NCBI GenBank assembly: GCA_016210925.1 | Contig: JACQTF010000179.1 | Span: 1 to 60,913, forward strand | Reading direction: 5' to 3' | DNA: 60,913 nt | Origin: Acidobacteriota bacterium | Lineage (GTDB): Bacteria; Acidobacteriota; UBA6911; JACQTF01 | Shown: positions 11,663 through 52,106 of the stretch, piece by piece | Layout of the letters: each line of letters opens with the position of its first letter | Position numbering within the stretch: the stretch's first letter is position 1 | Notes under the pieces: model-generated | What the model was told of the DNA's origin: nothing | What the model saw: only the letters and a program-made list of their open reading frames with translations | Databases searched by the model: none | Program-made: the position numbers and the translations under genes

Positions 11663-12493
11663 TCAGAAGATTTCAGGAAAGTGGAAGGTCAAGACCGCAT
11701 TGAGGAATTTGTCTGAGACGATCACGGCCTTGTTCTTGGAATCCAAAACCACCCCACGGGGTTTTTTCAAGGTGCCGTAAGGACCGCCAATCGTCCAGCG
11801 AGGAGGAACGTCGCCCCTGTCGTCGATGCTCCAGACGCCGACAAAGGCCGTTTCCGTGGCCATCTCCACTCCTGAGCCGGGGCCGGGAACGACTACAATA
11901 ATCTCCCCGCGGGGCGGGTAGACCTGGATCCGGGAGATCGAGTTGAGCCCTGTTTTCGGGCCACCGATGACACGCAGAGGCTTCACCTTGCCCTGATCTG
12001 TCCGGTTAAAGATCATCAGGTGGACAGCTCCCTCCTCGCCCTCGGATCCTGTGCCTGTCGCCACCACCATCAGGTTGCGCACAGGATCGACGGCGACCGG
12101 TCCGACACGACGGCCTAAGTCGGTATCAGGCTGCAGAGTTCGAATGGGCGCCACGTCTCCATCGGCTTCCCGTGGGAAAACGAGAACGGAACCGCTTTCA
12201 GGCACGAGAATTTCATTGTTGACGGGATCGATAGCCAGTGAACTCGAGCCTGCCAGTTTTGTCCGAGGACCCGAGATGACTCGAACGGGCGGTTCCTCCC
12301 CTCTCGCTCCTCCTCGAAATGTGAGGACGGCGCAGGCAAAAGGCTGCGGCACCACAATCTCGTCATGGATTTCGTCGTAGAAGATGGCATGCATGGTACG
12401 ACTCATCAGCGTCGCCTGTCCCTCGATCTTGCGAGTGGCCGTGGCATTTCCTTCCGCCAGCCTGGCGAAAACCGCAATCTGCGGATGGGCCAC
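11663..12493 (-). CDS. NHL/YVTN-like beta-propeller repeat protein, C-terminal portion (in frame with 12494..13741 across a single TGA)
   Basis: Repeats of the type GDVAPIRTL...G..VAVDP..N...V. The ORF begins at the codon immediately after the TGA of the upstream ORF, in the same frame. Confidence 0.6.
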   Translation of the reverse strand: MAHPQIAVFARLAEGNATATRKIEGQATLMSRTMHAIFYDEIHDEIVVPQPFACAVLTFRGGARGEEPPVRVISGPRTKLAGSSSLAIDPVNNEILVPESGSVLVFPREADGDVAPIRTLQPDTDLGRRVGPVAVDPVRNLMVVATGTGSEGEEGAVHLMIFNRTDQGKVKPLRVIGGPKTGLNSISRIQVYPPRGEIIVVVPGPGSGVEMATETAFVGVWSIDDRGDVPPRWTIGGPYGTLKKPRGVVLDSKNKAVIVSDKFLNAVLTFHFPEIF

Positions 12494-13741
12494 TCAGTTG
12501 GGCACCAGGATCTCCTCTCTTTTGCTGTCGTAAGCGACCGCACCCGGGTTCCCGATCATCAGCGCAGGTACCCCTGAAGGCCCGCTGCGGATGGTGCGCA
12601 GAGGTGCTGCATCCCCCTCGGCTGTCAACCGATACACTGTGAGGGAGTGACTGCCAAAGTTAGAGACCCAGAGTTCGTTGTTTTTGCCATCCAAAAAGAC
12701 ACCGGTCGGATTCTTGAGCCCCGTTCTGGGGCCTTTCACCACACGCGCGGGGGCCACATTGCCTTCATCCGTTTCATGGAACACCAGGATCGAGTTCGTC
12801 ATGTCGTTCGCGACAAAAAGCTCGCCCCGCTCCACGTCCACAGCCAGACCTGTCGGCCAGTTCAACTGGGTCTTGGGTCCCTGGATCACACGAAGAGGAG
12901 CCGCATCGCCGCTGGCGTCCAGAGCGTGCACCGTGATGGACGGAGGTAAGATCCGGCCTGAGCCTGGAACCTCTCTCTCCAGAGGCCAGTTGGACTTCAG
13001 GCGCCGCGAGACTTCGGCTTCGGGCATCTTGGAGTGCACACTTCCGTAGTTCGTCACGAACATCAGATTCTTCTTCGTATCAATGGCGATCCCGTGCGGG
13101 TCCGCCAACCCGGTGCGATCCCCCTGAATCAGGCGAGCAGGTGTTTCCTCTCCGGAGGCCATCTTGCGGAACACGATGACCGCATTGGCGTGCTGCGAGG
13201 TCAGGTACATCTCCTGCTTGCCCTCGTCCACAGCGATTCCAAAGGTCCCGTGGGGAGTCTTGAGAGCGCGATCGGGCGCAACATTGCCCCTGGCGTTTCG
13301 GGAAAAAATGACCAGGGTGTCAACGGTGTCGTTGTTCACCGCGTAAACATCCCCGCTTTGGGGGTCCACATAAAGTCCGCACTGAAACTCAATCTTGGTT
13401 TTTGGTCCCCCAATGGCGCGTTTCGGTTCAGTCATGGCGGCCGTTGGAGGAGTGTTATCCAGTCTGTTGTAAAACAGGAGTTGGAACAGATTCTCGTCTG
13501 TGGCAACAACTTCGTCGCGCGCAATGTCTACAGCGACAGAACTGGGCGATGAGTAGCTATCGCGAATGACCCGCAACGGAGGTCGCTTTGCCGCGGCGGT
13601 TTTCGGGTCGACTGAACTCTGTGCTCCTCCTAAGAGAATGTTTCGGGCTGCTTCGGCGGATGACAAAATAAAAGCGACCGCCGCCAGCGCCACCAGGGTT
13701 CCCAGAACACCCCAGGCTCGTTTCAGTTTGTAAATTCTCAT
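12494..13741 (-). CDS. exported NHL/YVTN-like beta-propeller repeat protein, N-terminal portion
   Basis: Start trimmed to ATG 13741 after GGGAGG (MRIYKLKRAWGVLGTLVALAAVAFILSSAEA). Repeated units such as GNVAPARVVKGPRTGLKNPTGVFLD..NELWVSN. Ends at TGA 12494..12496. Confidence 0.75.
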   Translation of the reverse strand: MRIYKLKRAWGVLGTLVALAAVAFILSSAEAARNILLGGAQSSVDPKTAAAKRPPLRVIRDSYSSPSSVAVDIARDEVVATDENLFQLLFYNRLDNTPPTAAMTEPKRAIGGPKTKIEFQCGLYVDPQSGDVYAVNNDTVDTLVIFSRNARGNVAPDRALKTPHGTFGIAVDEGKQEMYLTSQHANAVIVFRKMASGEETPARLIQGDRTGLADPHGIAIDTKKNLMFVTNYGSVHSKMPEAEVSRRLKSNWPLEREVPGSGRILPPSITVHALDASGDAAPLRVIQGPKTQLNWPTGLAVDVERGELFVANDMTNSILVFHETDEGNVAPARVVKGPRTGLKNPTGVFLDGKNNELWVSNFGSHSLTVYRLTAEGDAAPLRTIRSGPSGVPALMIGNPGAVAYDSKREEILVPN

Positions 13742-14078
13742 GTTGACCTCCCTTTCCGGGGCTGATTTGCCTTCGCTCATTGGATTCGTCTTCCGAATCG
13801 CCACTCGGGTCTGAGATGAGACGTGGCGAGAATACTATAGTCGTCTTCCTTGCTTGGGTCTACTGTGGATTTGCCGCTGCCGAGCTCAAAAAAGCCTAAG
13901 ATCGGCTTCGTCGTGACGAACTTGGGCTTGGATGAAGCTCTTGAAGGGCAGCATTTCAGCATTTGCGGAAAATCCTTGACATCTCCATTCAGGGGATGGT
14001 AGCAACGTTCTCAATTCTGTTTGCGCGCGCAAGTGTTTTCGGCCGTGGGTAATGGAATGACGGATGGAGGTAGACCCT

Positions 14079-17924: not shown

Positions 17925-20369
17925 CTATTGTTGCTGCTGAGCTTCGCCGCCCACCGGGGGGATCCAATCCTCCTTCAGAAGCTTCTCCGGGTCCCCAAAG
18001 CGTGCCACCGCAGCATGAATGTCCGGATCGTCCAGGTAGGCGACATGCCCGTTGACGATCACGTCTTTGACCAGTCCGGCTCCCTCCACGGTCAAAATGG
18101 GAAAATATTGCTGGTATTCCCAGGTACGAATCCCCTCCGAGGTTCCAAAGGTGAGGGTCAAAACCCCGGAGCGCTGGCCGCCTGCATACCACGACCACAA
18201 AAAGGCGGAGCCCTTGAGCTGGCCGGTCGCGGGAAGACGGAAGGCAGCGGGACTCATTCCCCAACTCAAGGAGAGCAGAGCGTCCCCTATCTGCTGCACG
18301 GAAGCTGAAGCCTCACCTTCGAAGCGCTGGACCCGGCCCTGTTCGATCGCCAATTTCAGTGGCGCGGTAGCACCTGTGAGAAGGTTGTTGGTGACCACCT
18401 GCCCTTTTGCGAAACCGTCGGGCTTCGGAAACAGAGTGACGGTCACCTGGGGCGGGAAGTGAAGCAGCCCGTGATCGGGGAGATCGAGTCCCTCCACGTT
18501 TTTGCGGTCCACGGGCTGAACGTCTAACATCAACTCGGTTCCCCGGCGGTCCAGCAGGGTCACGCTGTGGAGGCTCCGGACCTCTTCCAGCAGCTTCTCC
18601 ACCATGGCCCGGGGCACCTCGGTGCCCTGGAGGGCCCACCGGGAAGCAAAGATTTCAGGCAGCGCTACCACACTGACGAACCGGACCTGCTGCTCTGCCA
18701 GCCATTGAGCAAACGGTTTCTGATCCTGGCGCATCCCTCGGACAGGCAAGTAGGTGGTGCTCAGGACAAATTTCGTCCGCGCCACTTCCCCCCACAGGTC
18801 CGGCGGGAGGGTCCTGGATCGGAGCTGCTGCCAGGCCTGCAGCGGCGTACCGGAAAACGCGGGGGGCTCCACCTCGCGGGTCACTACGCGACACTTTTGT
18901 TCCCTCAACGCTTTGACCAGGGCTTCGTTGACCAGAGCGGGAACGGAGGCATCGGTGATGAGCAGCACGTCAGAACCCTCCGGCGCCCGCAAGGATCGGG
19001 TGACACACAGCCGGGCCGCCTCCATGAGCTCTTCCACGCTGCCGGGTTTCTTCACGGACGGAGCCCTGGGTTCCGGCAGTGGCACCTGTTCCGCGCCGAA
19101 CATGGTGCACTGCTCCACCAGCAGCACCGGATCACCGTAAGCAGAAGCCACCTTCAGCACGTCCGGCGCGTCCAGCGCCACCACGTGGCCGTCGCGGATG
19201 AAAGGACGTCCGGCCTGGAAGAGCGACGGAAAGAAGATCATCATCTCGAATTCCCGGCTCCCGCGCCGCTGCCGGAAGTGCAGGGTGACGACGCCGCTGC
19301 GCTGGTGCCCGCCCAGCTCGCCCAGCAGACGCGCCGGTCCCACGGAGGAAGGGCTCGCCACGCGGAAAGGTTTGGGATTCAGGTTCCAGGACAGGCCGGA
19401 GAATTCGTAGGGGGCCTCTCCCCGATTTTTCACGTATTCACCCCACGTTCCCCCGCCCTCCACCCGCAGTAGCCTTCCCTCGGAAAGGGAGAGCCGCGTT
19501 AACGGCACCATCCCTGCAGGGGCGCTGTGAGCCACCAGCGTGCCCGCTCCCGTCCCCTTCCGCGCCATCAGGCGCACGCGATAGTTGGGGGGGAAGAAGA
19601 GCAACGTTCCCGTGGGGGCAGGGTCAAACTCAGGTGCCGCCGCACTCGCTTCAAAGCGAAAAGAGGATCCAGCCGGGTCCTGCAGCAGGATCAGGCCGCC
19701 GCGCAGAAGTTGCCGGCTTTGCTCCTGGTAGGTGGCTTGCAGAACATCCTTGGGATACGCGGCCCACGGCGCCGCCAATACCTCCGGGACGGCGGTGACC
19801 AGGACCATTCGGAGCCCGTGCCTTCTGAGAAAGCCCTCCAGGTCCATTGCCTCCCGCTGGAAGGCGTGGGGGTTCAGGTATGAAAGCGAGACGATAACCC
19901 CGCTCTCCTTCGCAGCTCGCCAGATCTCCTCGGGCCACCAATCGCGGGCATGGTACGCCTCGTGAAGCCCCGTCAGCGACTCGCCCCGTTTCCATGCGGA
20001 ACGGGGCTCGCCCTTCGAGGTCGAAATCGGGATCCGAAATTCCCTCACTGAAACGCCCCGTTCCGACGCAGCCCGAAGGAAGGCCCGGCGCACCAGCTCG
20101 GAGGTGGTGGAGTCGGACACCAAAAGCATCCGATCCCCGGACCGCAGCTCCAACCAGTCCTCCAGCAGACGACGCGCCGGCCGCACGAGCTGGAGTTCGC
20201 TGAAAACGACCGGAGGCTTCACGGGCCGGATGTAGTCGGGCAGGTAATAGCCTCCGGGCATGCGGGGCCCCTGCTTCCCGTCCATCCCTTCCGCGCCCAA
20301 AACCAGCAAAAGCACTGAACCGAACCAAACGCACCCCCGAAGCACTTGTGACATGAATGGCTGCCTCAC
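17925..20369 (-). CDS. exported two-domain (tandem-duplicated) member of the uncharacterised family, paralogue 4, His motifs degenerate
   Basis: 814 aa with a signal peptide. Both halves align to paralogue 1 and end in ...GHVVALDAPDV..ASAYGDP and ...GHVAYLDDPDIHAAVARFGDPEKLLKEDWIPP. SGVIHWGFG is replaced by SGVVTLHFR/SGVLTLTFG, and HFHIH by EFEMM/WEYQQ. Confidence 0.8.
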   Translation of the reverse strand: MRQPFMSQVLRGCVWFGSVLLLVLGAEGMDGKQGPRMPGGYYLPDYIRPVKPPVVFSELQLVRPARRLLEDWLELRSGDRMLLVSDSTTSELVRRAFLRAASERGVSVREFRIPISTSKGEPRSAWKRGESLTGLHEAYHARDWWPEEIWRAAKESGVIVSLSYLNPHAFQREAMDLEGFLRRHGLRMVLVTAVPEVLAAPWAAYPKDVLQATYQEQSRQLLRGGLILLQDPAGSSFRFEASAAAPEFDPAPTGTLLFFPPNYRVRLMARKGTGAGTLVAHSAPAGMVPLTRLSLSEGRLLRVEGGGTWGEYVKNRGEAPYEFSGLSWNLNPKPFRVASPSSVGPARLLGELGGHQRSGVVTLHFRQRRGSREFEMMIFFPSLFQAGRPFIRDGHVVALDAPDVLKVASAYGDPVLLVEQCTMFGAEQVPLPEPRAPSVKKPGSVEELMEAARLCVTRSLRAPEGSDVLLITDASVPALVNEALVKALREQKCRVVTREVEPPAFSGTPLQAWQQLRSRTLPPDLWGEVARTKFVLSTTYLPVRGMRQDQKPFAQWLAEQQVRFVSVVALPEIFASRWALQGTEVPRAMVEKLLEEVRSLHSVTLLDRRGTELMLDVQPVDRKNVEGLDLPDHGLLHFPPQVTVTLFPKPDGFAKGQVVTNNLLTGATAPLKLAIEQGRVQRFEGEASASVQQIGDALLSLSWGMSPAAFRLPATGQLKGSAFLWSWYAGGQRSGVLTLTFGTSEGIRTWEYQQYFPILTVEGAGLVKDVIVNGHVAYLDDPDIHAAVARFGDPEKLLKEDWIPPVGGEAQQQQ

Positions 20370-32401: not shown

Positions 32402-34738
32402 CTACCCAGCTTCCCTGCGACTCTTCGCATCTTGCTTGGTAGGTGCGGGGCAACTCTCTCTGCCGTGACGCGCGTCTCTGAGAGCGCGCCAGACCCGCTC
32501 CGGCAGCAGGGGAACGCGACGGAGGCGAACGCCTGTCGCACGGTAGAGGGCGTTGACCAGTGCGGAGGAGATCGGGTTGAGGGATCCTTCGCCGCCCCCT
32601 TTTGCCCCGTACGGCCCCACCCCGTCCTGGTTCTCAGTCAAGGCCAGGTGCAGCTCCTCCGGCAGGTCCGAGAAACGAGGCACCCGGTAGTCCAGCAGCG
32701 AATTATTCACCAGTTGCTCGCCGTCGTAGATCAGCTCCTCGTACAGCCCGATGCCCATGCCCATGGTGGCGGCGCCCAAGTCCTGGCCCTCCGCCAGCGC
32801 GGGGTTGATGGCCAGGCCCACGTCTCCCACGACGGCCAGCTTTTCCAGGTGGACCCGCCCCGTCTCTTCGTCCACCGATACCTGCACTCCCAGGCAACCG
32901 AGCTCCCAGAACACCGGCAACTGGGAAAGGTCACCCGCCTTGCGGAGATAGGCCCGCCCCAACACTTCCCCATCGGGCAGGCCGAAATAGCGGGCGAGGA
33001 CTTGAGACCAATCCAGGCGGTCCGCCCCGCGCTGGACGCCCCCCCGCATCAGAGTCACCTCTTCCACCGGGCACCGCAAGACGTCCGCCGCCATCGCGCG
33101 CATCTGTGAGACGGCATCCTGGCACGCTTCCAACACCGCGCGGCCCATCAGCGTCGTGGTGCGGCTGGCGCCGGTGGAACGATCGAAGGGAGTGATGGCG
33201 GTATCCGAACCGACGACCCGCACTTTCTCGAAGGGGACGCCGATCTCCTCGGCGGCGATCTGGGCCACAATGGTATGGCTTCCCTGCCCCAGCTCGGTGC
33301 TGCCCGTGAGCACCGACACCGATCCATCGCCGTGGACCCGGACCGCCGCGGACGTCACCGGGTACGCCCCGGCGTCGCTGGCCGTGCAACCCACCGCCCG
33401 CCCCTTCCCCTTCGGGAGCGGCTTGTCCCAACCCAGGAGGTCCGCCACTTTCTTCAGATCGCTCTTCAGGTCTCCATCCAGCGGACGACTTTTCGGGAAG
33501 AAGACCTCGCCCCGTTCCGCCACGTTCGCCAGACGAAACGCCAAGGGATCCTGGCCGATCTTTTCCGCAATCTCGTCGATCTGGGACTCCGCCGCCAGCG
33601 TCACCTGGGCGGATCCAAAGCCGCGGAAGGAGCTGGCCGGCGCCGTGTTGGTGTAGACGCCATAGCAGTCGATGCGCGCATTCGGAATCCGGTAGGGCCC
33701 CGCCGCCCGGTTGGCCGCCTTCTCGCAGACCAGCGGGCTGTTTTCCGCGTAGGCTCCCGTGTTCAGATAGATGGTGGCCTGACGCGCCAGCAACTTGCCC
33801 TGGGCGTCCACGGCGGTCCGCTCGCGAACCAGCGCATCATCGCTCCGGGTGGTGAGCACGGCCTCCTCGACGCTGAGCTGCAGCTTGACCGGCCTGCGTG
33901 CCTTCCAGGCGCACGCCGCGGTAAGGGGCTCGATCTTGGTGTAGGACTTGCTCCCGTAGCCACCCCCCACGAACGGCACCACCAGACGAACCTTGCTCAC
34001 AGGAAGGTTGAACACGCCCGCCACGTCGTGGCGCACAATGAACGGGTGCTGGCAGGACGAATAGCAGGTCACGCCGCTTTCATTGACCTCCGCCACGCAC
34101 ACGTACGGCTCCATCGCGTACGCGTAGGCCATGGGATAGTAGTACTCCCCTTCCACGACGGCGGCAGCCTCCGCGAAAGCTTTGTCCGCATCGCCCCAGG
34201 TCACGTGGGCTTCCTGGCAGATATTGGTCCCGCGACCGGCCGACACATCGGCCTCGAAGCCCCGAAACCCTCCCGCAGCGAAAGTGCGCTCGTGGAGGAT
34301 CGGTGCTCCCTTCGCCAGCGCCTGCTCCACAGACAGGACCGCCGGCATCTCCTCGTATTGCACTGTAATGTGGTCCAGCGCTTGGAAGGCGGTGCGCTCG
34401 TCCACCGCCACCACCGCCACCACCGGTTCGCCCACGTAACGGACCTTCCCCATGGCCAGCACCGGGTGGTCCTTGACCGCATGGCCGTAATAAGGGTTCA
34501 AGCCCTCCAAACGATCCCCCGTCAGGACTGCGAACACGCCCGGCTGGGCCTCGGCCTCGCCGACCTTGATGGACAGGATCCGGGCGTGAGCATAAGGGCT
34601 GCGCAGCAGCTTCGCGTACGCCATGCCCGGGAGCACCACATCGCTGGCATATTTGGCCTGGCCCGTGACCTTGGCCACCCCGTCCCCTCGCGGCACCGAA
34701 TGGTTGACGACGTAAAACTCTCGCTTCTTCTCGCTCAT
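32402..34738 (-). CDS. molybdenum hydroxylase large (MoCo-binding) subunit, xanthine dehydrogenase/aldehyde oxidase family
   Basis: Start ATG 34738 overlaps the small-subunit TGA (ATGA). VAKVTGQAKYASD, GGGYGSK and SSFRGFG motifs. No AYxCSFR CO-dehydrogenase signature was seen. Confidence 0.92.
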   Translation of the reverse strand: MSEKKREFYVVNHSVPRGDGVAKVTGQAKYASDVVLPGMAYAKLLRSPYAHARILSIKVGEAEAQPGVFAVLTGDRLEGLNPYYGHAVKDHPVLAMGKVRYVGEPVVAVVAVDERTAFQALDHITVQYEEMPAVLSVEQALAKGAPILHERTFAAGGFRGFEADVSAGRGTNICQEAHVTWGDADKAFAEAAAVVEGEYYYPMAYAYAMEPYVCVAEVNESGVTCYSSCQHPFIVRHDVAGVFNLPVSKVRLVVPFVGGGYGSKSYTKIEPLTAACAWKARRPVKLQLSVEEAVLTTRSDDALVRERTAVDAQGKLLARQATIYLNTGAYAENSPLVCEKAANRAAGPYRIPNARIDCYGVYTNTAPASSFRGFGSAQVTLAAESQIDEIAEKIGQDPLAFRLANVAERGEVFFPKSRPLDGDLKSDLKKVADLLGWDKPLPKGKGRAVGCTASDAGAYPVTSAAVRVHGDGSVSVLTGSTELGQGSHTIVAQIAAEEIGVPFEKVRVVGSDTAITPFDRSTGASRTTTLMGRAVLEACQDAVSQMRAMAADVLRCPVEEVTLMRGGVQRGADRLDWSQVLARYFGLPDGEVLGRAYLRKAGDLSQLPVFWELGCLGVQVSVDEETGRVHLEKLAVVGDVGLAINPALAEGQDLGAATMGMGIGLYEELIYDGEQLVNNSLLDYRVPRFSDLPEELHLALTENQDGVGPYGAKGGGEGSLNPISSALVNALYRATGVRLRRVPLLPERVWRALRDARHGRESCPAPTKQDAKSRREAG

Positions 34739-35229
34739 GACCGACTCCTGAGCGCCTGAGCCGCCTTCTGGATGGCATGGACGATAGGCAGGTAGCCCGT
34801 GCATCGGCAGATGTTCCCGTCCATGGAGGCGCGAATTTCCTCTTCAGTGGGGAGCGGCCGCTCCTCCAGCAGGGCCCGGGCGGCCAGGATCATGCCGGGG
34901 GTGCAAAACCCGCACTGAAACGCCGACTCGTCCACGAAAGCCTGCTGCAAGGGATGCAGCGTCCCGTCCGGGGCAGCCAGACCTTCGATGGTCAGAACCT
35001 TTTTGTTCCGGGCCTCGTACGCCAGAAACGTACAGGCGCTCACCGGCAGGCCGTCCACCAGCACCGTGCAGGCTCCGCAGACCTGCACCTCGCACGAGAC
35101 TTTCGTTCCCGTCAGGTTCAGCCGGTTTCGCAGGACCTCCGCCAGACTCTCCTGCGGTTCGATCTCCAGTTCCACCGCGCGGCCGTTGACCTCGAAACTC
35201 AAGGGAAAAAGTGGGATTCCTTCGCTCAT
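34735..35229 (-). CDS. molybdenum hydroxylase [2Fe-2S] small subunit, CoxS-like
   Basis: 164 aa with CEVQVCGACTV and CGFCTPG cluster motifs. Confidence 0.92.
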   Translation of the reverse strand: MSEGIPLFPLSFEVNGRAVELEIEPQESLAEVLRNRLNLTGTKVSCEVQVCGACTVLVDGLPVSACTFLAYEARNKKVLTIEGLAAPDGTLHPLQQAFVDESAFQCGFCTPGMILAARALLEERPLPTEEEIRASMDGNICRCTGYLPIVHAIQKAAQALRSRS

Positions 35230-35693
35230 CCTGTTCCTCGGACCTCCACCAGCTTCGTCTTGATATGTTGCACGAACTCCGAAAAGCGCTCGTTCGCCCG
35301 ACGGCGAATCGGCGTCGCCCCCAGGGAGACCAGCCGGCCCAGGATCTCAAAGTCGCCGGCCAGGTCGAGCCGGGTACCGCCCCCCTCACTGATCAGTTCC
35401 GCTGTCAGGACGCCCTTGATGCGGTTCTGACCCTTGCCGTCCACGCCGGTCACCCGAGCTTTCAAAAGACGCGGTTCCTCGATCTGCTCCACCTCCACCC
35501 TGAGCTCCAGCTCCAGCTTGAACGGGCCGACCCGGTCCGCCAGCGCAGCCACGTATTCCCGATCCTCTGCCACCGTCTTGAGGTTTGTGACGCCAGGCAG
35601 CAAGGCGCTGAGCTGGCCTACGTCCCGAAGCAGCCTCCAGACGTGCTGGAGCGGCTGGTCCAGCCTGGCTTCTTCTCGGAGTTCCAACCTCAT
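35226..35693 (-). CDS. SRPBCC-family CoxG-like protein
   Basis: 155 aa. 4-nt overlap with the small-subunit gene. Sequence pattern PFKLELELRVEVEQ...GQNRIKGVLTAEL is typical of CoxG-like subunits. Confidence 0.8.
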   Translation of the reverse strand: MRLELREEARLDQPLQHVWRLLRDVGQLSALLPGVTNLKTVAEDREYVAALADRVGPFKLELELRVEVEQIEEPRLLKARVTGVDGKGQNRIKGVLTAELISEGGGTRLDLAGDFEILGRLVSLGATPIRRRANERFSEFVQHIKTKLVEVRGTG

Positions 35694-44150: not shown

Positions 44151-45680
44151 TTACGGATAGGGTTTGAAGTCCAGGATGGAGCCGTAGGCTTGGCGGTGTT
44201 CCTGGCGGATCCACTTCACCGGGTCGTTGGCGTAGTCCTTGAAGTAGTCGCCGGGCACGTTGATGCCGGGGATCGCGGGAATCCATGCCTCCCGGAGCAG
44301 CTCGTCCGGATTGCCGTATTTGGCCGCCAGCGTGCGAACCTCCGGATGATCCAGCGCCACCAGGCGCCCCTTGTCGATGACCTTCTGCTCCCCCCCGTCC
44401 CGCGTTTTGACCACATAGGTAGGGAAATAAAGATGGACATGGAAGTGGCTTCCCGGCAGGCCGCGGGAGGAGGCCCAGGCCGCGGATAACAACTGGCCGA
44501 TCCCCACGTGAATGACGCCCGACCGGTTGCGCTCGTAAATCCAGCCGCGACGTGCGATCTGAGACTCGAACACGTTGTGCGGTCTGACGATCCAGGGATG
44601 GGTCCCGATGGCGCTTTCCATCAGATACTTGCTTCCCGGCTCCGGGTAGTGGGGATACTGGATGTCCTTGGTCAGCTCCAGGAACTCCCGCCACAGCTCC
44701 CCGAAGCGGCCGCCCCCCTCGATGGAAACCACCTGATTGCGCTTGATCGCGATCTTCAGGTGGGGATAAGGCCCCATGTGGTCCGAGGCCCCCTGGATGA
44801 CGCCCTCCCCATCGGATTTGTCCAGAATGACGCCCTGGGGATGGCCCATGAGGTGGCTCTGAATCAGCGGAATTTCCGACCGGCCCGGACCATAGATGTG
44901 GGTGCCGCTCCCGGCCACCTTCAAAGTGGGGTGCAGGCCCTCGACCACCTGCCAGTACTCGTCCAGCCAGGTGAATCGATAGTCGGTCCCTTCGGGGTCC
45001 GTGAGGTGGACCTGGCGGGCCTGCCGCAGTCTCTCCCAGCCTTTCTCGTCCACCACCTTCAAGAGATCCATGGGATATTTCACGGACGCGTCCGCCAGCA
45101 TTTCCCGGGTGACCCAGTCCAGCCCGTATCCAATTTCCAGGTCATTCTCAGGCTGGCGGTAGGTGATCCCGATCACCTTGTCGTATCCCTGGGCTTTGGA
45201 CGTGTCCATCAGCCACTTGGACGAACGAAACAGCGGGGGCTCGCTGCCCGGACCCTTTCGTCGCGCTCTGGCCACGACCCGCTCCATCATGTCCACGGCC
45301 CCTTCGATCTTTGTCAGGGTCGCGTCAGTGATCAGGGTATCGACGGTGCAATTCAGCTCCTTGAATCCCCTCTCGAACGCCTCGATCACCAGAGGGTCCA
45401 ACGCCCTGGATACGACGAAGAGAATCTTCTCGCCCCCTTTGACCTCGTATCCGGGAAACTGGTTACCCGAATAGGGCATGGGCCGCTGGATGATGATCTT
45501 GGCGTTGGGGAGCAGCTCCTCGACGGAGGTGATCCGAGGTATCTTGGGATACCTCGGAGCGGGATAGCCCAAGGTATCCGGCTCGGGACTTGCAGCCGTC
45601 CTAAGCTCGAGCCAGAGAACCCCCGCCAAAAGGGATCCCAATAGAATAAAGACCGTGAGGATCTTTGCCATGAAGCTCAT
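44151..45680 (-). CDS. membrane-anchored/exported protein of the uncharacterised family, paralogue 3
   Basis: 509 aa. AGGAG precedes the ATG. N-terminal hydrophobic segment. Motifs are YPAPRYPK, LTDPEGTDYRF, ESAIGTHP, SGVIHVGIG, HFHVHLYF and EAWIPAIPGINVPGDY. Lies 13 nt downstream of the TRAP permease gene. Confidence 0.85.
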   Translation of the reverse strand: MSFMAKILTVFILLGSLLAGVLWLELRTAASPEPDTLGYPAPRYPKIPRITSVEELLPNAKIIIQRPMPYSGNQFPGYEVKGGEKILFVVSRALDPLVIEAFERGFKELNCTVDTLITDATLTKIEGAVDMMERVVARARRKGPGSEPPLFRSSKWLMDTSKAQGYDKVIGITYRQPENDLEIGYGLDWVTREMLADASVKYPMDLLKVVDEKGWERLRQARQVHLTDPEGTDYRFTWLDEYWQVVEGLHPTLKVAGSGTHIYGPGRSEIPLIQSHLMGHPQGVILDKSDGEGVIQGASDHMGPYPHLKIAIKRNQVVSIEGGGRFGELWREFLELTKDIQYPHYPEPGSKYLMESAIGTHPWIVRPHNVFESQIARRGWIYERNRSGVIHVGIGQLLSAAWASSRGLPGSHFHVHLYFPTYVVKTRDGGEQKVIDKGRLVALDHPEVRTLAAKYGNPDELLREAWIPAIPGINVPGDYFKDYANDPVKWIRQEHRQAYGSILDFKPYP

Positions 45681-48961: not shown

Positions 48962-49168
48962 CTAAGAACCGTCTTCAGTGGTGAGATATCTTTGAATGTC
49001 AGACACCAGCGAGGCGAGATCCAAGTTCTTCTTCGAAGCAACTGCTTCGAGGGTTTGATCCCCGGCGCATCATATGTCTGGCACGCGGCGGAGAAGGAAG
49101 CGCGTGACCTCCGGTTTGAGGGAGAGCAACTGGCGGACTGTCATTCCACGGATTTGTTCCGCAGTCAT
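48962..49168 (-). CDS. DUF1858-like small redox protein with in-frame TGA (candidate selenoprotein, U-C dyad)
   Basis: MTAEQIRGMTVRQLLSLKPEVTRFLLRRVPDI-TGA-CAGDQTLEAVASKKNLDLASLVSDIQRYLTTEDGS. The TGA is at 49070..49072, where family members carry the Cys-containing motif before ETLEEAA. A hairpin follows 19 nt downstream. Confidence 0.45.
49033..49050 (-). promoter_or_regulatory. SECIS-like hairpin downstream of the DUF1858-like TGA
   Basis: RNA UCGAAGC-AGUU-GCUUCGA has a perfect 7-bp stem and a loop containing GU. It starts 19 nt after the UGA. A possible GAUC/GAUC lower stem flanks it. Confidence 0.4.
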
Positions 49169-49198
49169 CGGCGCAGATCCTCCACTCCGTCCACTCCC

Positions 49199-49330
49199 CT
49201 ACAGCGTAATGACCTGATCCACACCCACCTTGCCCAGCGCCGCGTAAAGATCGGGAAAACAGCCGATTTGTGCCCCATCAATGAGATTCTTATCTATTTC
49301 TCGCTCGTAAGCGCACTGGTCACAAGCCAT
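49199..49330 (-). CDS. 43-codon CxxC mini-ORF with glutaredoxin-like ends
   Basis: MACDQCAYEREIDKNLIDGAQIGCFPDLYAALGKVGVDQVITL. CDQC and LIDGAQIGCFPDLYAAL resemble the Grx CPYC and FIxGxxIGGxDDLxAL motifs, but the middle is missing. Overlaps the IscU-like stop by 11 nt. Confidence 0.3.
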   Translation of the reverse strand: MACDQCAYEREIDKNLIDGAQIGCFPDLYAALGKVGVDQVITL

Positions 49331-49637
49331 AGCAGTGCATCTTCTCGGGCGGAATCGTGCCGAGAGCGTCGGAAAGCTCTTGCTCCGTCACGGACAGAGC
49401 ATCTTCCACGTCCTTGCCTTGGACCATTTCCGTGAGCGCGCTGGAACACGCCACGGAGGTGATGCAACCCTGTGTTTTGAATTTCACCTCCTGAATCCGG
49501 CCGTCTTCCACGCTCAAGGTGAGGAGGATGCGGATACTCCAGGGATTGTCTTGCTCCAGGTAAGAGCGGTTGGGCTGATCGACAACTCCAAGATTGCGTG
49601 GATGATGGAAATGGTCCAAAACGGGGCTGCGGAACAT
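49320..49637 (-). CDS. IscU/NifU N-terminal-like protein (atypical, first Cys ligand absent)
   Basis: MFRSPVLDHFHHPRNLGVV..., FKTQGCITSVACSSALTEMVQGK and PPEKMHC match IscU motifs. The NPxCGD motif reads NPWSIR. Confidence 0.7.
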   Translation of the reverse strand: MFRSPVLDHFHHPRNLGVVDQPNRSYLEQDNPWSIRILLTLSVEDGRIQEVKFKTQGCITSVACSSALTEMVQGKDVEDALSVTEQELSDALGTIPPEKMHCYGL

Positions 49638-49719
49638 TCCAACATCACCGGTGGGCGTCGCAGTCTACTTAGGGTTTCCGCACCCCGACCCTAAGCCTTC
49701 CCCGATTCCTATCCGCATC

Positions 49720-50196
49720 TCACCGTTTCGGAATCTTGAATTCCGCCACCTTCAGTTCAAGCGGATCGCCGGAATCATCGATGGTGCCAAGGATCCAGAT
49801 CGGATGGCCCGAGGGGACCTTTGGAGAATCTACCAGGAGAAGCTTATCCTTGCCGGCAACGAAGAATCGCTTCGATCCCTCTTCCTGGACACGCCCGCGG
49901 GCGGCAATTTGGAACCGGACAATCTCAACCTCCGCTCTTGCCACGGCAGCGCGAATGTCCTCCGGTTGGAAGCTGGTTCCCGGCTCATAGGTGATCTGCA
50001 CGGTCTGCTTTTGCAGGCTAATGGAAACATCGGCGACACCGTCCAGGCGTCGTAGGGCGACCTCCATGATCGCCGCGCAGGCCGCTCAGGTGATTCCTCT
50101 TGCATCGGCCAGCACCCTTTCCACCTGAGCCAGTGCCGGTGTGCTCGCCGCCGGTGCCAGTAGGGCCAGAAGTAACAACCGCGTCAGGCGCTTCAT
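49720..50196 (-). CDS. periplasmic HMA/MerP-like protein with TGA at the first Cys of the CxxC metal site (candidate selenoprotein)
   Basis: ATG 50196: MKRLTRLLLLALLAPAASTPALAQVERVLADARGIT-TGA-AACAAIMEVALRRLDGVADVSISLQKQTVQITYEPG... The TGA is at 50086..50088. The ORF track sees only 49720..50067. Confidence 0.7.
50056..50074 (-). promoter_or_regulatory. SECIS-like hairpin downstream of the HMA-protein TGA
   Basis: RNA GGCGAU-CAUGGAG-GUCGCC has a 6-bp stem (one G-U pair) and a 7-nt loop with GG. It starts 11 nt after the UGA. Confidence 0.4.
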
Positions 50197-50233
50197 CTCC
50201 TTGTCCCTTGAAGAAGACTGTGGGAGAAACCCG

Positions 50234-50554
50234 TTAACGATAGCGGAACCAAAGCGTCATCCACGCGCTGAGAACCAACAGGTTTACCCCAATGCTCGCC
50301 CCCAGAATTGCCTTCATGCCCCTGGTCCGAAGAGAGGGAGGACGGCGATAGACGAGCGAACCCTGGTAGGCGAGTGCGCCCAGCGCTACCCCGATAAACA
50401 CCGGCTGCAAACGTTCCAGCCAGAAGAGGCAAGTGACGTTGAGGAGCGAAAAGAGGCCAAGTCCTGCCAGGACTTGCGGAAGCACTCATCAGCTCGGCGT
50501 GAGGAGGGCAGCCGCAATCGCCAGCAGTCCCATGCGTTTCGGATCCGATTTCAT
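50234..50554 (-). CDS. MerT-like membrane protein with tandem in-frame TGA-TGA at the vicinal Cys-Cys position (candidate di-selenocysteine protein)
   Basis: ATG 50554: MKSDPKRMGLLAIAAALLTPS-TGA-TGA-VLPQVLAGLGLFSLL...LERLQPVFIGVALGALAYQGSLVYRR... TGA codons are at 50489..50491 and 50486..50488. The ORF track sees only 50234..50485. Confidence 0.7.
50458..50476 (-). promoter_or_regulatory. SECIS-like hairpin downstream of the MerT-like TGA-TGA
   Basis: RNA CAAGUCC-UGGCA-GGACUUG has a perfect 7-bp stem and a 5-nt loop containing GG. It starts 9 nt after the second UGA. Confidence 0.5.
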
Positions 50555-50594
50555 GTGACCCGACTACCACTATACGGACCGGCCACTCCACCTG

Positions 50595-52106
50595 TCAAGG
50601 CTGGTTACGCTGGTTGACCATCCGGAACGCGGCTTTTACCCGGGGAACGACGAAGGGTAGAAGGATCAGAACGAGCGCCGAGAGGAGAAAGGCGCCCGAG
50701 AGGGGGCGCCAGAGAAAGATCATCAGGCTTCCCCGGGAGAGCAGGAGGGACTGCCGGAGGGATTCCTCCGCCATGCGGCCCAGGACGAAAGCCAGCAGGA
50801 GGGGGACCGGGTCGTACTGGAACTTTTTCATGAGGTAGCCCACCACGCCGAAGGCCAGCATGGTGATGATGTCCCAGATGTTGCCCGACACGCTGTAAGC
50901 GCCGATGACGCAAAACAGCAGGATCAACGGGAAAAGAATGCCGTAGGGAACCTTGAGGAGCTGGACCCATAGTCCGATCAGGGGGAGGTTCAGGACCAGG
51001 AGCATGGCGTTGCCGACGTACATGCTGGTGATGACGCCCCAGAAGATCTCCGGATGCTCCTTCATCAAGAGGGGGCCCGGCTGAACCCCGTGAACCAGAA
51101 AGGCTCCCAGCAGCACGGCCATGACCACGTTGGGGGGAATGCCCAGGGTCAGCAGCGGGATCATGGATCCTGCCGTGGCGGCGTTGTTGGCCGATTCCGG
51201 CCCGGCGACTCCCTCGATGGCGCCCGCGCCGAACTTCTCGGGGTGTTTGGAGATGCGCCGCTCGACCCCGTAGGAGATGAAGGACGGGATGATCGTGCCC
51301 ATCCCGGGGAGGATTCCCAGAAAGAAGCCCAACAGGCTTCCCCGGGCGACGGGGCCGGCGGAATCCTTCCAGTCCTGCCGGGTGGGCAGCAGGCCTTTGA
51401 TCCGGGTCTCGAAGACTCCCTGCTGGAGGCCTTGCTCGATGTTGAGGAGGACCTCTGCGACGCCGAACAGGCCCATGATGAGAGGCACCAGCCCCAACCC
51501 GTCCATCAGCGTGACACTGCGGAACGTGAAGCGCGGTGTGCCCACGATGGGGTCCAGCCCGACGGTGCCCAGAAACAACCCCAGAATGGCCATGGCCGCG
51601 GCCTTGAGCTTCGAGCCGCGCGCCAGGAAGGTCACCATGGTGAAACCCAGTATCAGGAGGCCGAAGATCTCCGGAGGCCCGAATCGGAGGGCGATGGAGG
51701 CGAGGGGAGGCGCCAGCAACATGATTCCCACCACGCCGAAGGTCCCGGCGATGAAGGAGCCGAAGGCTGCAATCCCAAGGGCCGGGCCCGCCCGGCCCCG
51801 GCGCGCCATCTGGTGACCATCCAGACACGTCACGACGGAAGCAGCCTCGCCGGGGACGTTGACCAGGATGGAGGTGGTGGAACCTCCGTACATGGCCCCG
51901 TAGTAGATGCCCGCCAGCATGATGAGGGAGGTGGTGGCGCTCATCGTGTAGGTGACCGGAAAGAGGAGGGACATGGTCACCACAGACCCGATGCCGGGCA
52001 GGACGCCCACCAGCGTTCCGATCAAGACGCCCGCGAAGCACGCCGCCAGGTTGGTAGGCTCTAGGCTCACGGAAAAGCCGTAAAGTACGCTCTGGACGAG
52101 GTCCAT
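50595..52106 (-). CDS. tctA: tripartite tricarboxylate transporter large permease TctA
   Basis: About 500-aa polytopic protein, [20 protein letters not shown]... Start trimmed to ATG 52106, downstream of the tctB stop. The same-strand overlapping 478-aa ORF is an artefact. Confidence 0.9.

What the first reader, a model, noticed from the sequence alone, without database searches (positions are those of the whole stretch)
48962..50554. Operon-level view: a selenocysteine-rich MerT/MerP-like relay coupled to IscU-like and thiol-redox proteins, with no merA or merR
Five co-directional minus-strand genes sit with short spacers:
- MerT-like (UU)
- HMA/MerP-like (UxxC)
- atypical IscU-like protein
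- CxxC mini-ORF
- DUF1858-like (UC)
Four TGA codons fall on positions that are metal- or redox-active Cys in the respective families, and every TGA site (the tandem pair counted as one) is followed by a hairpin at SECIS-like distance.
There is no mercuric reductase, MerR, organomercurial lyase or P-type ATPase in the window, so this is not a canonical mercury-resistance operon.
Inference: the cluster could import or hand over a soft, chalcogen-philic species (Hg, Cu, Ag, or selenium/tellurium itself). The path would run from periplasm to a cytoplasmic IscU-like acceptor through Sec ligands rather than Cys ligands. I cannot place this arrangement in any described system.
It starts only 40 nt after the tctA stop, so it may be co-transcribed with tctCBA.
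Basis: inference. Interest (0 to 1): 0.9.

Follow-up and report, generated by a model that had tools for sequence, protein, structure and literature searches.

The report
Selenocysteine-rich MerT/HMA metal-relay gene module
A soil acidobacterium-like genome carries a small conserved gene set in which a membrane protein with two adjacent selenocysteines and a periplasmic metal-binding protein with one selenocysteine appear to pass a soft metal, most likely copper, across the membrane; it has not been described in this form in the sources I could read.

Summary
The four in-frame TGA codons are real and conserved. The MerT-like gene has TGA-TGA in all 24 distinct relatives. An invariant hairpin follows, and its synonymous sites are frozen. 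The HMA protein (UxxC) and a small ScdA_N-like protein (UC) keep their TGA and hairpins across lineages. Relatives or reference proteins have Cys at those positions.

The order MerT-HMA-NifU-DsrE-UC recurs in other soil contigs, so synteny holds. Three details are wrong:
- The "atypical IscU" and "CxxC mini-ORF" are the two ends of a ~290-nt deletion. It fused a NifU-like gene to a DsrE/SaoD-like gene, out of frame.
- The last gene is ScdA_N-like, not DUF1858.
- The operon has its own conserved TTGACA-N18-TATAGT promoter, so it need not depend on tctCBA.

The commonest partner was missed. It is a membrane-anchored tandem beta-propeller (NHL) protein that is itself a selenoprotein (VPN-U-VAHPQ; window 11663-13804). 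An exported methyltransferase-fold protein usually accompanies it.

In one all-Cys version, the HMA and propeller genes follow PCuAC and SCO1 copper chaperones. My best reading is a Sec-based Cu(I) relay. This is a new variant of a known kind.

The parts
50569..50598 (-). Sigma-70-type promoter, TTGACA (50598-50593), 18-nt spacer, TATAGT (50574-50569). The -35 overlaps the tctA stop codon. It leaves a leader of about 8 nt.
   Evidence: 11 of 12 consensus matches. TTGACA followed by a TATAGT-like -10 recurs upstream of the MerT-like gene in most of 22 distinct lineages, whatever the upstream gene; the spacer shows a GAAC..GTTC-like dyad.
50234..50554 (-). MerT-like membrane selenoprotein with three hydrophobic segments, 106 aa. 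Vicinal Sec-Sec at codons 22-23 (TGA TGA, 50491-50486), in the first hydrophobic segment.
   Evidence: Pfam MerT 27.4 bits, below the gathering cut-off. UU aligns with MerT CC. TGATGA is present in all 24 distinct relatives.
50458..50476 (-). SECIS-like hairpin CAAGUCC-UGGCA-GGACUUG. It starts 12 nt after the first UGA and 9 nt after the second.
   Evidence: Nearly invariant at nucleotide level. Third-codon-position pairwise identity is 0.92-1.00 in codons 27-32, against 0.57 in the rest of the gene.
49720..50196 (-). Exported HMA (CopZ/MerP-like) selenoprotein, 158 aa. It has a signal peptide, a GIT-U-AAC motif (TGA 50088-50086) and a C-terminal OB-like beta domain.
   Evidence: Pfam HMA 37.9 bits, above cut-off. 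Full-length relatives have Cys at the U position. U is conserved in 23 distinct sequences. AF2 of a Cys-form relative gives pLDDT 87, and Foldseek finds Atx1/CopZ plus OB folds.
50034..50074 (-). Two conserved hairpins after the HMA UGA (50074-50056 and 50052-50034). Both have UGGA-containing loops. The first starts 11 nt after the UGA.
   Evidence: 91% of cells paired over 20 sequences, against 60% or less for slid controls.
49320..49637 (-). Truncated NifU_N-like gene (105 aa; relatives are 125-153 aa). This subfamily lacks the CGD ligand motif and normally carries a (Y/H)CC pair.
   Evidence: Pfam NifU_N 95.6 bits, profile positions 3-106 of 127. Relatives and alignment. Deletion mapped.
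49199..49330 (-). Remnant (last 43 codons) of a DsrE/SaoD-family gene. It keeps the CxxC and the third Cys but lacks the first ~67 codons.
   Evidence: NCBIfam SaoD positions 68-110 of 110, 70 bits. Intact 110-112-aa relatives are 84-93% identical. The 289-297-nt gap has its junction at ~49331/49330.
48962..49168 (-). Small cytoplasmic ScdA_N-like selenoprotein, 68 aa, motif PDI-U-C (TGA 49072-49070).
   Evidence: Pfam ScdA_N E 4e-6, below the gathering cut-off. UC aligns with YtfE CC. The TGA is conserved in L010, L015, L017 and L018.
49033..49050 (-). SECIS-like hairpin UCGAAGC-AGUU-GCUUCGA, starting 19 nt after the UGA.
   Evidence: 97% of cells paired in 5 lineages, with one compensatory A-U to G-C change.
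11663..13804 (-). Membrane-anchored tandem beta-propeller (NHL) selenoprotein, ~700 aa, annotated as two ORFs. In-frame TGA at 12496-12494 in the motif LVPN-U-VAHPQ. It is the commonest genomic partner of the MerT/HMA pair elsewhere; here it lies 36 kb away. The start codon is uncertain (GTG 13804 or ATG 13741).
   Evidence: Both ORFs are in one frame, and sequence is conserved across the TGA in 11 loci. 86 of 87 full-length homologues have Cys there. Adjacency is shown. AF2 gives pLDDT 88 with an N-terminal TM helix plus propellers.
12451..12484 (-). Two conserved hairpins after the propeller gene's UGA (12484-12472 and 12471-12451).
   Evidence: 98.6% of cells paired in 6 lineages, with one compensatory A-U to U-A change.

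Best explanation
The window holds a slightly damaged copy of a conserved, multi-selenoprotein metal-handling module of soil Acidobacteriota-like bacteria.

Shown:
- The invariant core is a MerT-like membrane protein with three hydrophobic segments and two adjacent selenocysteines in the first, followed by an exported HMA protein with a UxxC site.
- Each UGA site is followed by a conserved SECIS-like hairpin. For the tandem UGA-UGA there is only one hairpin, 12 and 9 nt downstream of the two codons.
- The core has its own strong promoter.
- Variable cytoplasmic partners follow: a divergent NifU-like protein with a CC pair, a DsrE/SaoD-like CxxC protein, and an ScdA_N-like UC protein.
- The commonest external partners are an N-terminally anchored tandem beta-propeller with one Cys or Sec, and a methyltransferase-fold protein with a signal-peptide-like N-terminus.

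Inferred:
- One hairpin recodes both UGAs, presumably because each lies close to the ~11-nt spacing known for E. coli fdhF (own knowledge).
- The HMA protein binds a thiophilic metal ion in the periplasm on its Sec/Cys pair. It passes the ion to the Sec-Sec pair of the MerT-like protein, as MerP does to MerT. The ion then crosses between the periplasm and the cytoplasmic Cys/Sec proteins.
- The metal is most likely Cu(I), and the pathway serves the periplasmic propeller protein.
- The direction of transfer is not known.

In this window a ~290-nt deletion has truncated the NifU-like gene and destroyed the DsrE-like gene. Relatives without the DsrE gene exist, so the rest may still work.
For: Sec decoding:
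- TGATGA is present in 24 of 24 distinct MerT-like genes, with protein conservation on both sides.
- The hairpin is invariant while flanking synonymous sites vary.
- The HMA U is conserved in 23 sequences, with Cys in full-length relatives.
- The UC protein's TGA is conserved in 5 lineages.
- The propeller's U equals Cys in 86 of 87 homologues.
- Hairpins are kept, with wobble and compensatory changes.
- TGA is also the ordinary stop of several genes here, so this is not a reassigned code.
- Acidobacteriota are known Sec users.

Module:
- MerT-HMA adjacency holds in every locus that covers both genes, about 45 in all.
- T-P-N-D-S occurs in L010, L015 and L032, the same order up to the contig end in L034, and T-P-N-S in L017 and L018.
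- The propeller and methyltransferase-fold genes are divergent neighbours in more than 20 loci.

Metal relay:
- UU sits on the MerT CC pair.
- The HMA domain passes the Pfam cut-off.

Copper:
- In L052 the order is cytochrome c, PCuAC (105.8 bits), SCO1 (152 bits), a g2-like HMA lipoprotein (CxxC), then the Cys-form propeller. A methyltransferase orthologue and an HMBD protein lie nearby.
- In L010 the Sec-form propeller is followed on the same strand by a CuA-type COX2 and COX1.
- The HMA domain scores higher with Cu-ATPase metal-binding domains (E 1e-17) than with MerP (E 2e-4).
- Foldseek's top hits are Atx1 and CopZ.
Against: - No experiment and no metal-binding data exist.
- The copper link rests on one Cys-form locus (L052), one Sec-form locus (L010) and one weak NosD-like hit (L050, below cut-off).
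- Two other Cys-form propeller loci (L051, L053) have no copper genes.
- HMA domains do not reveal metal specificity from sequence.
- The MerT-like protein is below the Pfam and NCBIfam cut-offs and lacks MerT's cytoplasmic Cys pair.
- No selA, selB, selC or selD is in the window.
- Single-sequence hairpin energies are not significant, and covariation counts are small.
- The propeller fold search gave only generic tandem propellers, so its activity is unknown.
Confidence: 0.5

Rival explanations
1. A transmembrane reductant relay. Cytoplasmic thiol/selenol proteins (UC protein, NifU-like CC, DsrE-like CxxC) reduce the Sec-Sec pair of the membrane protein. That pair reduces the periplasmic UxxC protein, which keeps the single Cys or Sec of the propeller protein reduced. 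This would work like CcdA/DsbD rather than like a metal transporter.
For: - Every component carries a redox-capable Cys/Sec pair.
- The end client has a single conserved Cys or Sec.
- SCO1 in L052 is a thioredoxin-fold protein that also acts as a reductase (function from own knowledge).
- Sec is usually recruited at redox-active Cys.
Against: - The homology is to MerT and HMA, not to CcdA/DsbD or thioredoxin folds.
- Vicinal CC pairs and HMA CxxC sites are classical metal sites (own knowledge).
- PCuAC in L052 is a copper chaperone with no redox role.
- Type-A loci encode no cytoplasmic donor nearby.
Confidence: 0.15
2. A mercury or other toxic-metal (Hg, Ag, Cd) uptake and sequestration system. 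It would be a mer-like import pathway whose cytoplasmic sink is the NifU-like, DsrE-like or UC proteins instead of MerA.
For: - The best family matches are MerT and MerP.
- Sec binds Hg very tightly (own knowledge).
- MerT-like selenoproteins are already listed as putative mercuric transport proteins.
Against: - The Pfam scans of the larger ORFs found no MerA, MerB or MerR in the window, and the called genes of the related loci with Pfam annotation show none either.
- Importing Hg without a reductase is harmful.
- Contexts are chromosomal housekeeping, with no mobile or resistance genes.
- Neighbours point to copper chaperones and a CuA oxidase.
- The MerT cytoplasmic Cys pair is absent.
Confidence: 0.12
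3. Chalcogen trafficking. The module would move sulfur or selenium species such as persulfide, perselenide, selenide or tellurium to NifU-like and DsrE-like carriers.
For: - DsrE and NifU families carry persulfides (own knowledge; for DsrE).
- The DsrE-like gene is close to SaoD (159 bits).
Against: - The NifU, DsrE and UC genes are absent from most loci, and the DsrE-like gene is dispensable (L017, L018, and this window).
- The invariant parts are metal-type domains.
- Thousands of Cys-form propeller homologues exist without Sec.
- The operon-type NifU lacks the CGD motif, which is Cys37 and Asp39 of IscU.
Confidence: 0.08
4. The TGAs are ordinary stops, and the ORFs are decaying pseudogenes or chance.
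For: - Part of the cluster is indeed damaged in this window.
- No sel genes or tRNA-Sec are in the 61 kb.
- Single-sequence hairpin energies are unremarkable.
Against: - The same TGAs, with conserved protein sequence on both sides, occur in many diverged lineages.
- Cys sits at these positions in homologues.
- Synonymous sites of the hairpin are frozen.
Confidence: 0.03

Closest known systems
MerT/MerP of the mercury-resistance (mer) operon
   Same: - A small three-segment membrane protein with a vicinal Cys-type pair in its first hydrophobic segment, plus an exported HMA protein with a CxxC-type site, encoded side by side.
- The UU pair aligns with the MerT CC pair.
   Different: - Sec replaces three of the four ligand Cys.
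- There is no cytoplasmic Cys pair in the membrane protein.
- There is no MerA, MerR or MerB.
- Scores are below the family cut-offs.
- The HMA protein has an extra C-terminal OB-like domain.
Catalogued MerT-like and HMA selenoproteins: 'putative mercuric transport protein' (C/SxxU or CU), NCBIfam NF045683 MerT/CopZ fusion-like selenoprotein, and NF041115 UxxU metal-binding selenoprotein
   Same: The idea is the same: Sec as a metal ligand in MerT- and CopZ-type proteins.
   Different: - Here there are two separate genes.
- The motif in the membrane protein is a tandem UU, and the HMA motif is UxxC rather than UxxU.
- Scores are far below those models' cut-offs (17-19 against 375, and 45 against 95).
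- The partners differ.
- I could not read the paper that probably defines NF045683.
SAO (selenocysteine-assisted organometallic) system of anaerobes (Haft and Gwadz)
   Same: - A multi-selenoprotein operon with CC/CU-type motifs on both sides of the membrane.
- It contains a DsrE-like SaoD, and the relative here scores 159 bits on that model.
   Different: - None of SaoA, B, C, E, L, P, T or X is present.
- Transport is by a MerT-like protein, not an ABC system.
- The hosts are soil Acidobacteriota-like bacteria rather than strict anaerobes.
- The DsrE-like gene is optional.
Periplasmic copper-chaperone pathways (PCuAC, SCO1/SenC, CopZ)
   Same: - A CopZ-fold chaperone sits next to a periplasmic client.
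- In the all-Cys locus L052 the g2-like HMA gene lies directly between SCO1 and the propeller gene.
   Different: - In Sec-type loci PCuAC and SCO1 are not adjacent, and a MerT-like membrane protein is there instead.
- The client is an uncharacterised tandem propeller.

Membership tests
MerT (Pfam PF02411; NCBIfam NF010314) | Vicinal Cys pair in the first transmembrane helix | tested here: met
   The UU pair aligns with the CC pair of Tn501 MerT (45% identity over 56 aa; reference sequence from memory). The Pfam alignment covers residues 13-71. The pair is Sec instead of Cys.
MerT (Pfam PF02411; NCBIfam NF010314) | Score above the curated cut-off | tested here: not met
   27.4 bits against 32.9 for Pfam, and 28.9 against 150 for NCBIfam.
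MerT (Pfam PF02411; NCBIfam NF010314) | Second Cys pair in the cytoplasmic loop between the second and third helices | tested here: not met
   The loop YRRPPSLRTRGMK has no Cys. The same holds in relatives.
mer operon | merR and merA (with or without merB) in the same locus | tested here: not met
   Pfam scans of the 30 largest window ORFs found none (smaller ORFs not scanned). The called genes with Pfam annotation in about 20 related loci show none.
HMA domain (PF00403) | Ferredoxin-like fold with an xxC-x-x-C metal site; score above cut-off | tested here: met
   37.9 bits against 24.8. The site is UxxC here and CxxC in relatives. The AF2 model matches Atx1/CopZ with TM 0.77-0.86 on the target.
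MerP equivalog (TIGR02052) and UxxU metal-binding selenoprotein (NF041115) | Score above the curated cut-off; UxxU motif for NF041115 | tested here: not met
   39.5 against 92.55, and 45 against 95. The motif is UxxC in all 23 sequences.
MerT/CopZ fusion-like selenoprotein (NF045683) | A single fused polypeptide scoring 375 bits or more | tested here: not met
   Two separate genes, scoring 17.1 and 19.5 bits.
IscU/NifU scaffold (PF01592; TIGR01999) | NifU_N domain | tested here: met
   95.6 bits against 22.
IscU/NifU scaffold (PF01592; TIGR01999) | Three cluster-ligand Cys, including the CGD motif, and a C-terminal helix | tested here: not met
   CGD is replaced by NPW-x-(I/V)R in the whole operon-linked subfamily. 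The C-terminal ~30 residues are deleted in this window. Scores are below the equivalog cut-offs.
SaoD / SAO system (NF040732) | Full-length DsrE-like protein at or above cut-off, inside a saoABCELPTX locus | tested here: not met
   The window holds only profile positions 68-110 (70 bits). An intact relative scores 159 against 169. No other sao genes are present.
RIC/ScdA/YtfE (ScdA_N plus di-iron hemerythrin domain) | N-terminal ScdA_N domain with a CC pair | tested here: inconclusive
   Pfam ScdA_N E 4e-6, but 26.7 bits is below the 32.5 cut-off. UC aligns with YtfE C30-C31. The PDB ScdA hit has E 0.14.
RIC/ScdA/YtfE (ScdA_N plus di-iron hemerythrin domain) | C-terminal di-iron domain | tested here: not met
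   The protein is only 68 aa.
   No hit at E up to 1.
Bacterial selenoprotein genes | In-frame UGA aligned with Cys in homologues, with conservation on both sides | tested here: met
Bacterial selenoprotein genes | Stem-loop (SECIS) shortly downstream of the UGA | tested here: met
   Conserved hairpins lie 9-12, 11, 19 and 12-22 nt downstream. Single-sequence energies are not significant.
Bacterial selenoprotein genes | selA, selB, selC and selD in the genome | not testable with these tools
   None is in the 61-kb window, and whole genomes of the carriers could not be fetched. Acidobacteriota include Sec users.

The most novel reading that the evidence does not exclude
This is an undescribed multi-selenoprotein system of soil Acidobacteriota-like bacteria, with up to five Sec in four proteins.
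- Two adjacent UGA codons in a membrane protein are recoded by one SECIS hairpin, giving a vicinal diselenol metal site.
- At least two of its selenoprotein families, the NHL tandem propeller (VPN-U-VAHPQ) and the ScdA_N-like UC protein, are absent from current catalogues.
- The system delivers copper to, or takes it from, a new periplasmic propeller enzyme.
Probability: 0.4. Interest if true: 0.8.

Novelty: new variant of a known kind. Interest (0 to 1): 0.7.

Why it matters
- Bacterial SECIS elements must sit right after each UGA. A naturally conserved UGA-UGA pair served by one hairpin gives a direct test of how much spacing SelB-dependent recoding tolerates. It would also give a natural Sec-Sec metal site inside a membrane.
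- The module ties a very large, uncharacterised family of periplasmic tandem propellers in soil bacteria to metal chaperones. More than 4,000 homologues were found at E of 1e-10 or better, and the search scored only the top 8,000 candidates.
- The module shows Cys and Sec versions of the same pathway side by side. That makes it a useful system for asking why Sec is chosen as a metal ligand.
- The Sec-form genes examined here are called as truncated or split ORFs in the collections searched, so this chemistry is under-counted in soil metagenomes.

Tried and rejected
- Single-sequence RNA folding of the four post-TGA stretches gave z-scores from -0.8 to +0.3, which is uninformative. Comparative analysis replaced it.
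- Rfam found no family in the window.
- A literature search for 'SaoD' returned only unrelated acronyms. A search for adjacent or tandem Sec found nothing relevant.
- Haft and Tolstoy 2025 is not held, so prior description cannot be fully excluded.
A narrower alignment found only 3 loci among 185,579 species.
- The contig of the Cys-form HMA P0005 had no DNA available.
- Foldseek of the propeller model gave only generic tandem WD/YWTD propellers.
- Cys-form propeller loci L051 and L053 gave no metal context.
- I considered a programmed frameshift or a NifU-DsrE fusion at the g3/g4 junction. I rejected it because relatives have two separate intact genes and the gap is a simple ~290-nt deletion.
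- I considered TGA reassignment. I rejected it because TGA also ends ordinary genes here.
- A scan of the window for further ORF pairs split by a TGA was too noisy at 60% GC to use.


Full report
**What is in the window**

On the minus strand, 40 nt after the tctA stop, lie five ORFs:
- g1, 50554-50234: MerT-like, with TGA-TGA at codons 22-23.
- g2, 50196-49720: signal peptide plus HMA domain, with TGA as the first position of a UxxC site.
- g3, 49637-49320: NifU_N-like.
- g4, 49330-49199: a 43-codon ORF with CxxC.
- g5, 49168-48962: a small protein with TGA-TGC (UC).

Family scans give the following:
- g1: Pfam MerT 27.4 bits, below cut-off.
- g2: HMA 37.9 bits, above cut-off.
- g3: NifU_N 95.6 bits.
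- g5: ScdA_N/DUF542 at E 4e-6, and no DUF1858 match.
- g4: this is the surprise. It matches only positions 68-110 of the 110-residue NCBIfam model for the DsrE-like protein SaoD (70 bits).

Pfam scans of the 30 largest non-overlapping ORFs found no MerA, MerR, MerB, P-type ATPase or sel gene, and ARAGORN found no tRNA; smaller ORFs were not scanned. The gene content looks acidobacterial: CarboxypepD_reg/OMP_b-brl_4 receptors, TctABC and TRAP transporters. A Logan assembly of run SRR12113390 is 100% identical over 4.5 kb.

**Are the TGAs selenocysteine codons?**

The g2 family is tiny, with 24 clusters among 5.8 billion proteins.
- Its full-length members have Cys where the window has TGA.
- The 114-115-aa members start just after that position, so they are truncated gene calls.

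I fetched DNA for about 50 related loci. They show:
- The MerT-like gene carries TGATGA in all 24 distinct sequences, embedded in the conserved peptide LL-x-PS-UU-(V/A/I)LPQVLAGLGL.
- The HMA gene carries G(I/D)(T/F)-U-xxC in 23 distinct sequences.
- g5 carries P(D/E)I-U-C in five lineages.

TGA also serves as an ordinary stop in this window, so the code is not reassigned. Acidobacteriota are documented Sec users.

**SECIS evidence**

Folding each site alone is no better than shuffled sequence. The comparative picture is clear.
- After the tandem UGA there is one hairpin, CAAGUCC-UGGCA-GGACUUG. It is nearly invariant in nucleotide sequence. Third-codon-position pairwise identity is 0.92-1.00 in codons 27-32, against a mean of 0.57 elsewhere in the gene. 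Neighbouring invariant-residue codons vary freely.
- The HMA site is followed by two hairpins with UGGA loops. They are 91% paired over 20 sequences, against 60% or less when the pairing register is slid.
- The g5 hairpin is 97% paired in five lineages, with one compensatory change.

The first hairpin starts 12 and 9 nt after the two UGAs of g1, 11 nt after the UGA of g2, and 19 nt after that of g5. I infer that a single SECIS recodes both adjacent UGAs.

**Synteny**

- The order MerT-HMA-NifU-DsrE-UC recurs in L010, L015 and L032, and in L034 as far as the contig end inside the DsrE-like gene.
- Two Terriglobia MAGs (L017, L018) have MerT-HMA-NifU-UC without the DsrE-like gene.
- Most soil-metagenome loci have only MerT-HMA.
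- The pair is adjacent in every locus that covers both genes.
- Only 3 of 185,579 species representatives carry the HMA family, so the module is rare in genomes but recurrent in soil metagenomes.

**The g3/g4 junction**

- Relatives have an intact NifU-like gene (125-153 aa) followed by an intact DsrE/SaoD-like gene (110-112 aa, 84-93% identical to g4).
- Nucleotide alignment shows a single 289-297-nt gap in the window, with its junction at ~49331/49330. The 289- and 292-nt estimates are not multiples of three, and the frames observed at the junction show the two remnants are out of frame.
- So g3 lost its last ~30 codons, and g4 is a pseudogene remnant.
- The operon-linked NifU subfamily is itself unusual. 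It lacks the CGD motif (Cys37 and Asp39 of IscU) and normally has a (Y/H)CC pair.
- The intact DsrE-like relative scores 159 bits on SaoD, just below the 169-bit cut-off. That places it in the non-SAO branch, which Haft and Gwadz found next to metal transporters.

**A missed partner**

In more than 20 loci the MerT-HMA pair is transcribed divergently from three ORFs: an NHL-repeat ORF, a ~240-260-aa ORF, and a methyltransferase-fold ORF with a signal-peptide-like N-terminus.

The first two of these are one gene.
- They share a frame and are separated only by TGA.
- The sequence ...KREQLLVPN-U-VAHPQIAAFARLADGNA... is conserved across the TGA in 11 loci.
- More than 4,000 homologues exist (only the top 8,000 candidates were scored).
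- The full-length ~733-aa forms have Cys at that position in 86 of 87 cases.
- Two conserved hairpins follow the TGA, 98.6% paired, with one A-U to U-A swap.
- AF2 of a Cys form gives pLDDT 88, with an N-terminal TM helix and tandem propellers. Foldseek finds only generic propellers.

The window has this selenoprotein gene at 11663-13804, 36 kb from the operon. Neither NCBIfam release 20 nor the 2026 catalogue of 119 families lists a propeller or an ScdA_N-like selenoprotein.

**Which substrate?**

- In L052, an all-Cys version, the gene order is cytochrome c, PCuAC (105.8 bits), SCO1/SenC (152 bits), a g2-like HMA lipoprotein (GITCPTC, same two-domain layout, E 1e-12), then the Cys-form propeller.
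- A methyltransferase orthologue and an HMBD protein lie upstream in L052.
- In L010 the Sec-form propeller is followed on the same strand by a CuA-type COX2 and COX1.
- A weak NosD-like ORF follows a Cys-form HMA gene in L050.
- The HMA domain scores better with Cu-ATPase metal-binding domains than with MerP.
- Its model matches Atx1 and CopZ, with an OB-like C-terminal domain.

Against this, two other Cys-form loci show no copper genes. I therefore rate copper as the most likely substrate, but not as established.

**Transcription**

- A TTGACA-N18-TATAGT promoter (11 of 12 matches) sits in the 40-nt gap, with its -35 overlapping the tctA stop.
- The same elements recur upstream of the MerT-like gene in most of 22 distinct lineages, whatever lies upstream. 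The spacer contains a conserved GAAC..GTTC-like dyad.
- The tctCBA neighbourhood is not conserved in the same orientation.

**Comparison with known systems**

- MerT-like selenoproteins (C/SxxU or CU), a UxxU metal-binding selenoprotein, a MerT/CopZ fusion-like selenoprotein and the SAO operon are already catalogued.
- The present proteins fall far below those models' cut-offs. They also differ in motif (UU, UxxC), in architecture (separate genes) and in partners.
- I could not read Haft and Tolstoy 2025, so an earlier description cannot be excluded.

**Verdict**

The system is best filed as a new variant of the known Sec-containing MerT/HMA kind, with unusually interesting features: the tandem Sec pair, the propeller selenoprotein, and parallel Cys and Sec versions of one pathway.

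Noticed in passing
window 11663-13804 (-), TGA at 12494-12496: Two adjacent ORFs (436 aa and 276 aa) are one tandem beta-propeller (NHL) gene, interrupted by a conserved in-frame TGA (LVPN-U-VAHPQ). It is not in the selenoprotein catalogues I could check.
   Followed up: yes
window 50569-50598 (-); the equivalent regions of L002-L043: The promoter spacer upstream of the MerT-like gene keeps a GAAC..GTTC-like dyad across lineages. This suggests an operator for an unidentified, possibly metal-sensing, regulator. No regulator gene is nearby.
   Followed up: partly
L010 6633-7304; L002 2215-2889; L052 1-214: A class I methyltransferase-fold protein with no Cys and a signal-peptide-like N-terminus (AEA-PAQ) travels with the module. 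An exported SAM methyltransferase would be odd, because SAM is cytoplasmic. The tblastn search found no orthologue in the window.
   Followed up: partly
L018 8789-8984: The UC gene of this Terriglobia MAG shows a frameshift just before the TGA. By eye it looks like a 7-nt duplication; I did not check the DNA. It could be an assembly indel error or a real pseudogene.
   Followed up: no
L009 1838-3969: In an Acidobacteria MAG the Sec-form HMA gene stands without a MerT-like gene, directly after a B12-binding radical SAM gene.
   Followed up: no
window 49720-49915 (C-terminal half of g2): The HMA protein has a conserved C-terminal beta domain of OB-like fold with no Cys, Met or His motif. It is kept in the distant Cys-form of L052 and may be a docking domain.
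   Followed up: partly
window 1398-2900, 13989-15656, 17925-20369 and 44151-45680 (all -): Four long ORFs (500-814 aa) have no Pfam match at E of 1e-5 or better.
   Followed up: no
window 32402-35392 (-): A molybdopterin xanthine-dehydrogenase-type large subunit (800 aa) is preceded in the same frame by a 181-aa ORF, separated by a single TGA. This is probably just adjacent subunit genes, but I did not check.
   Followed up: no
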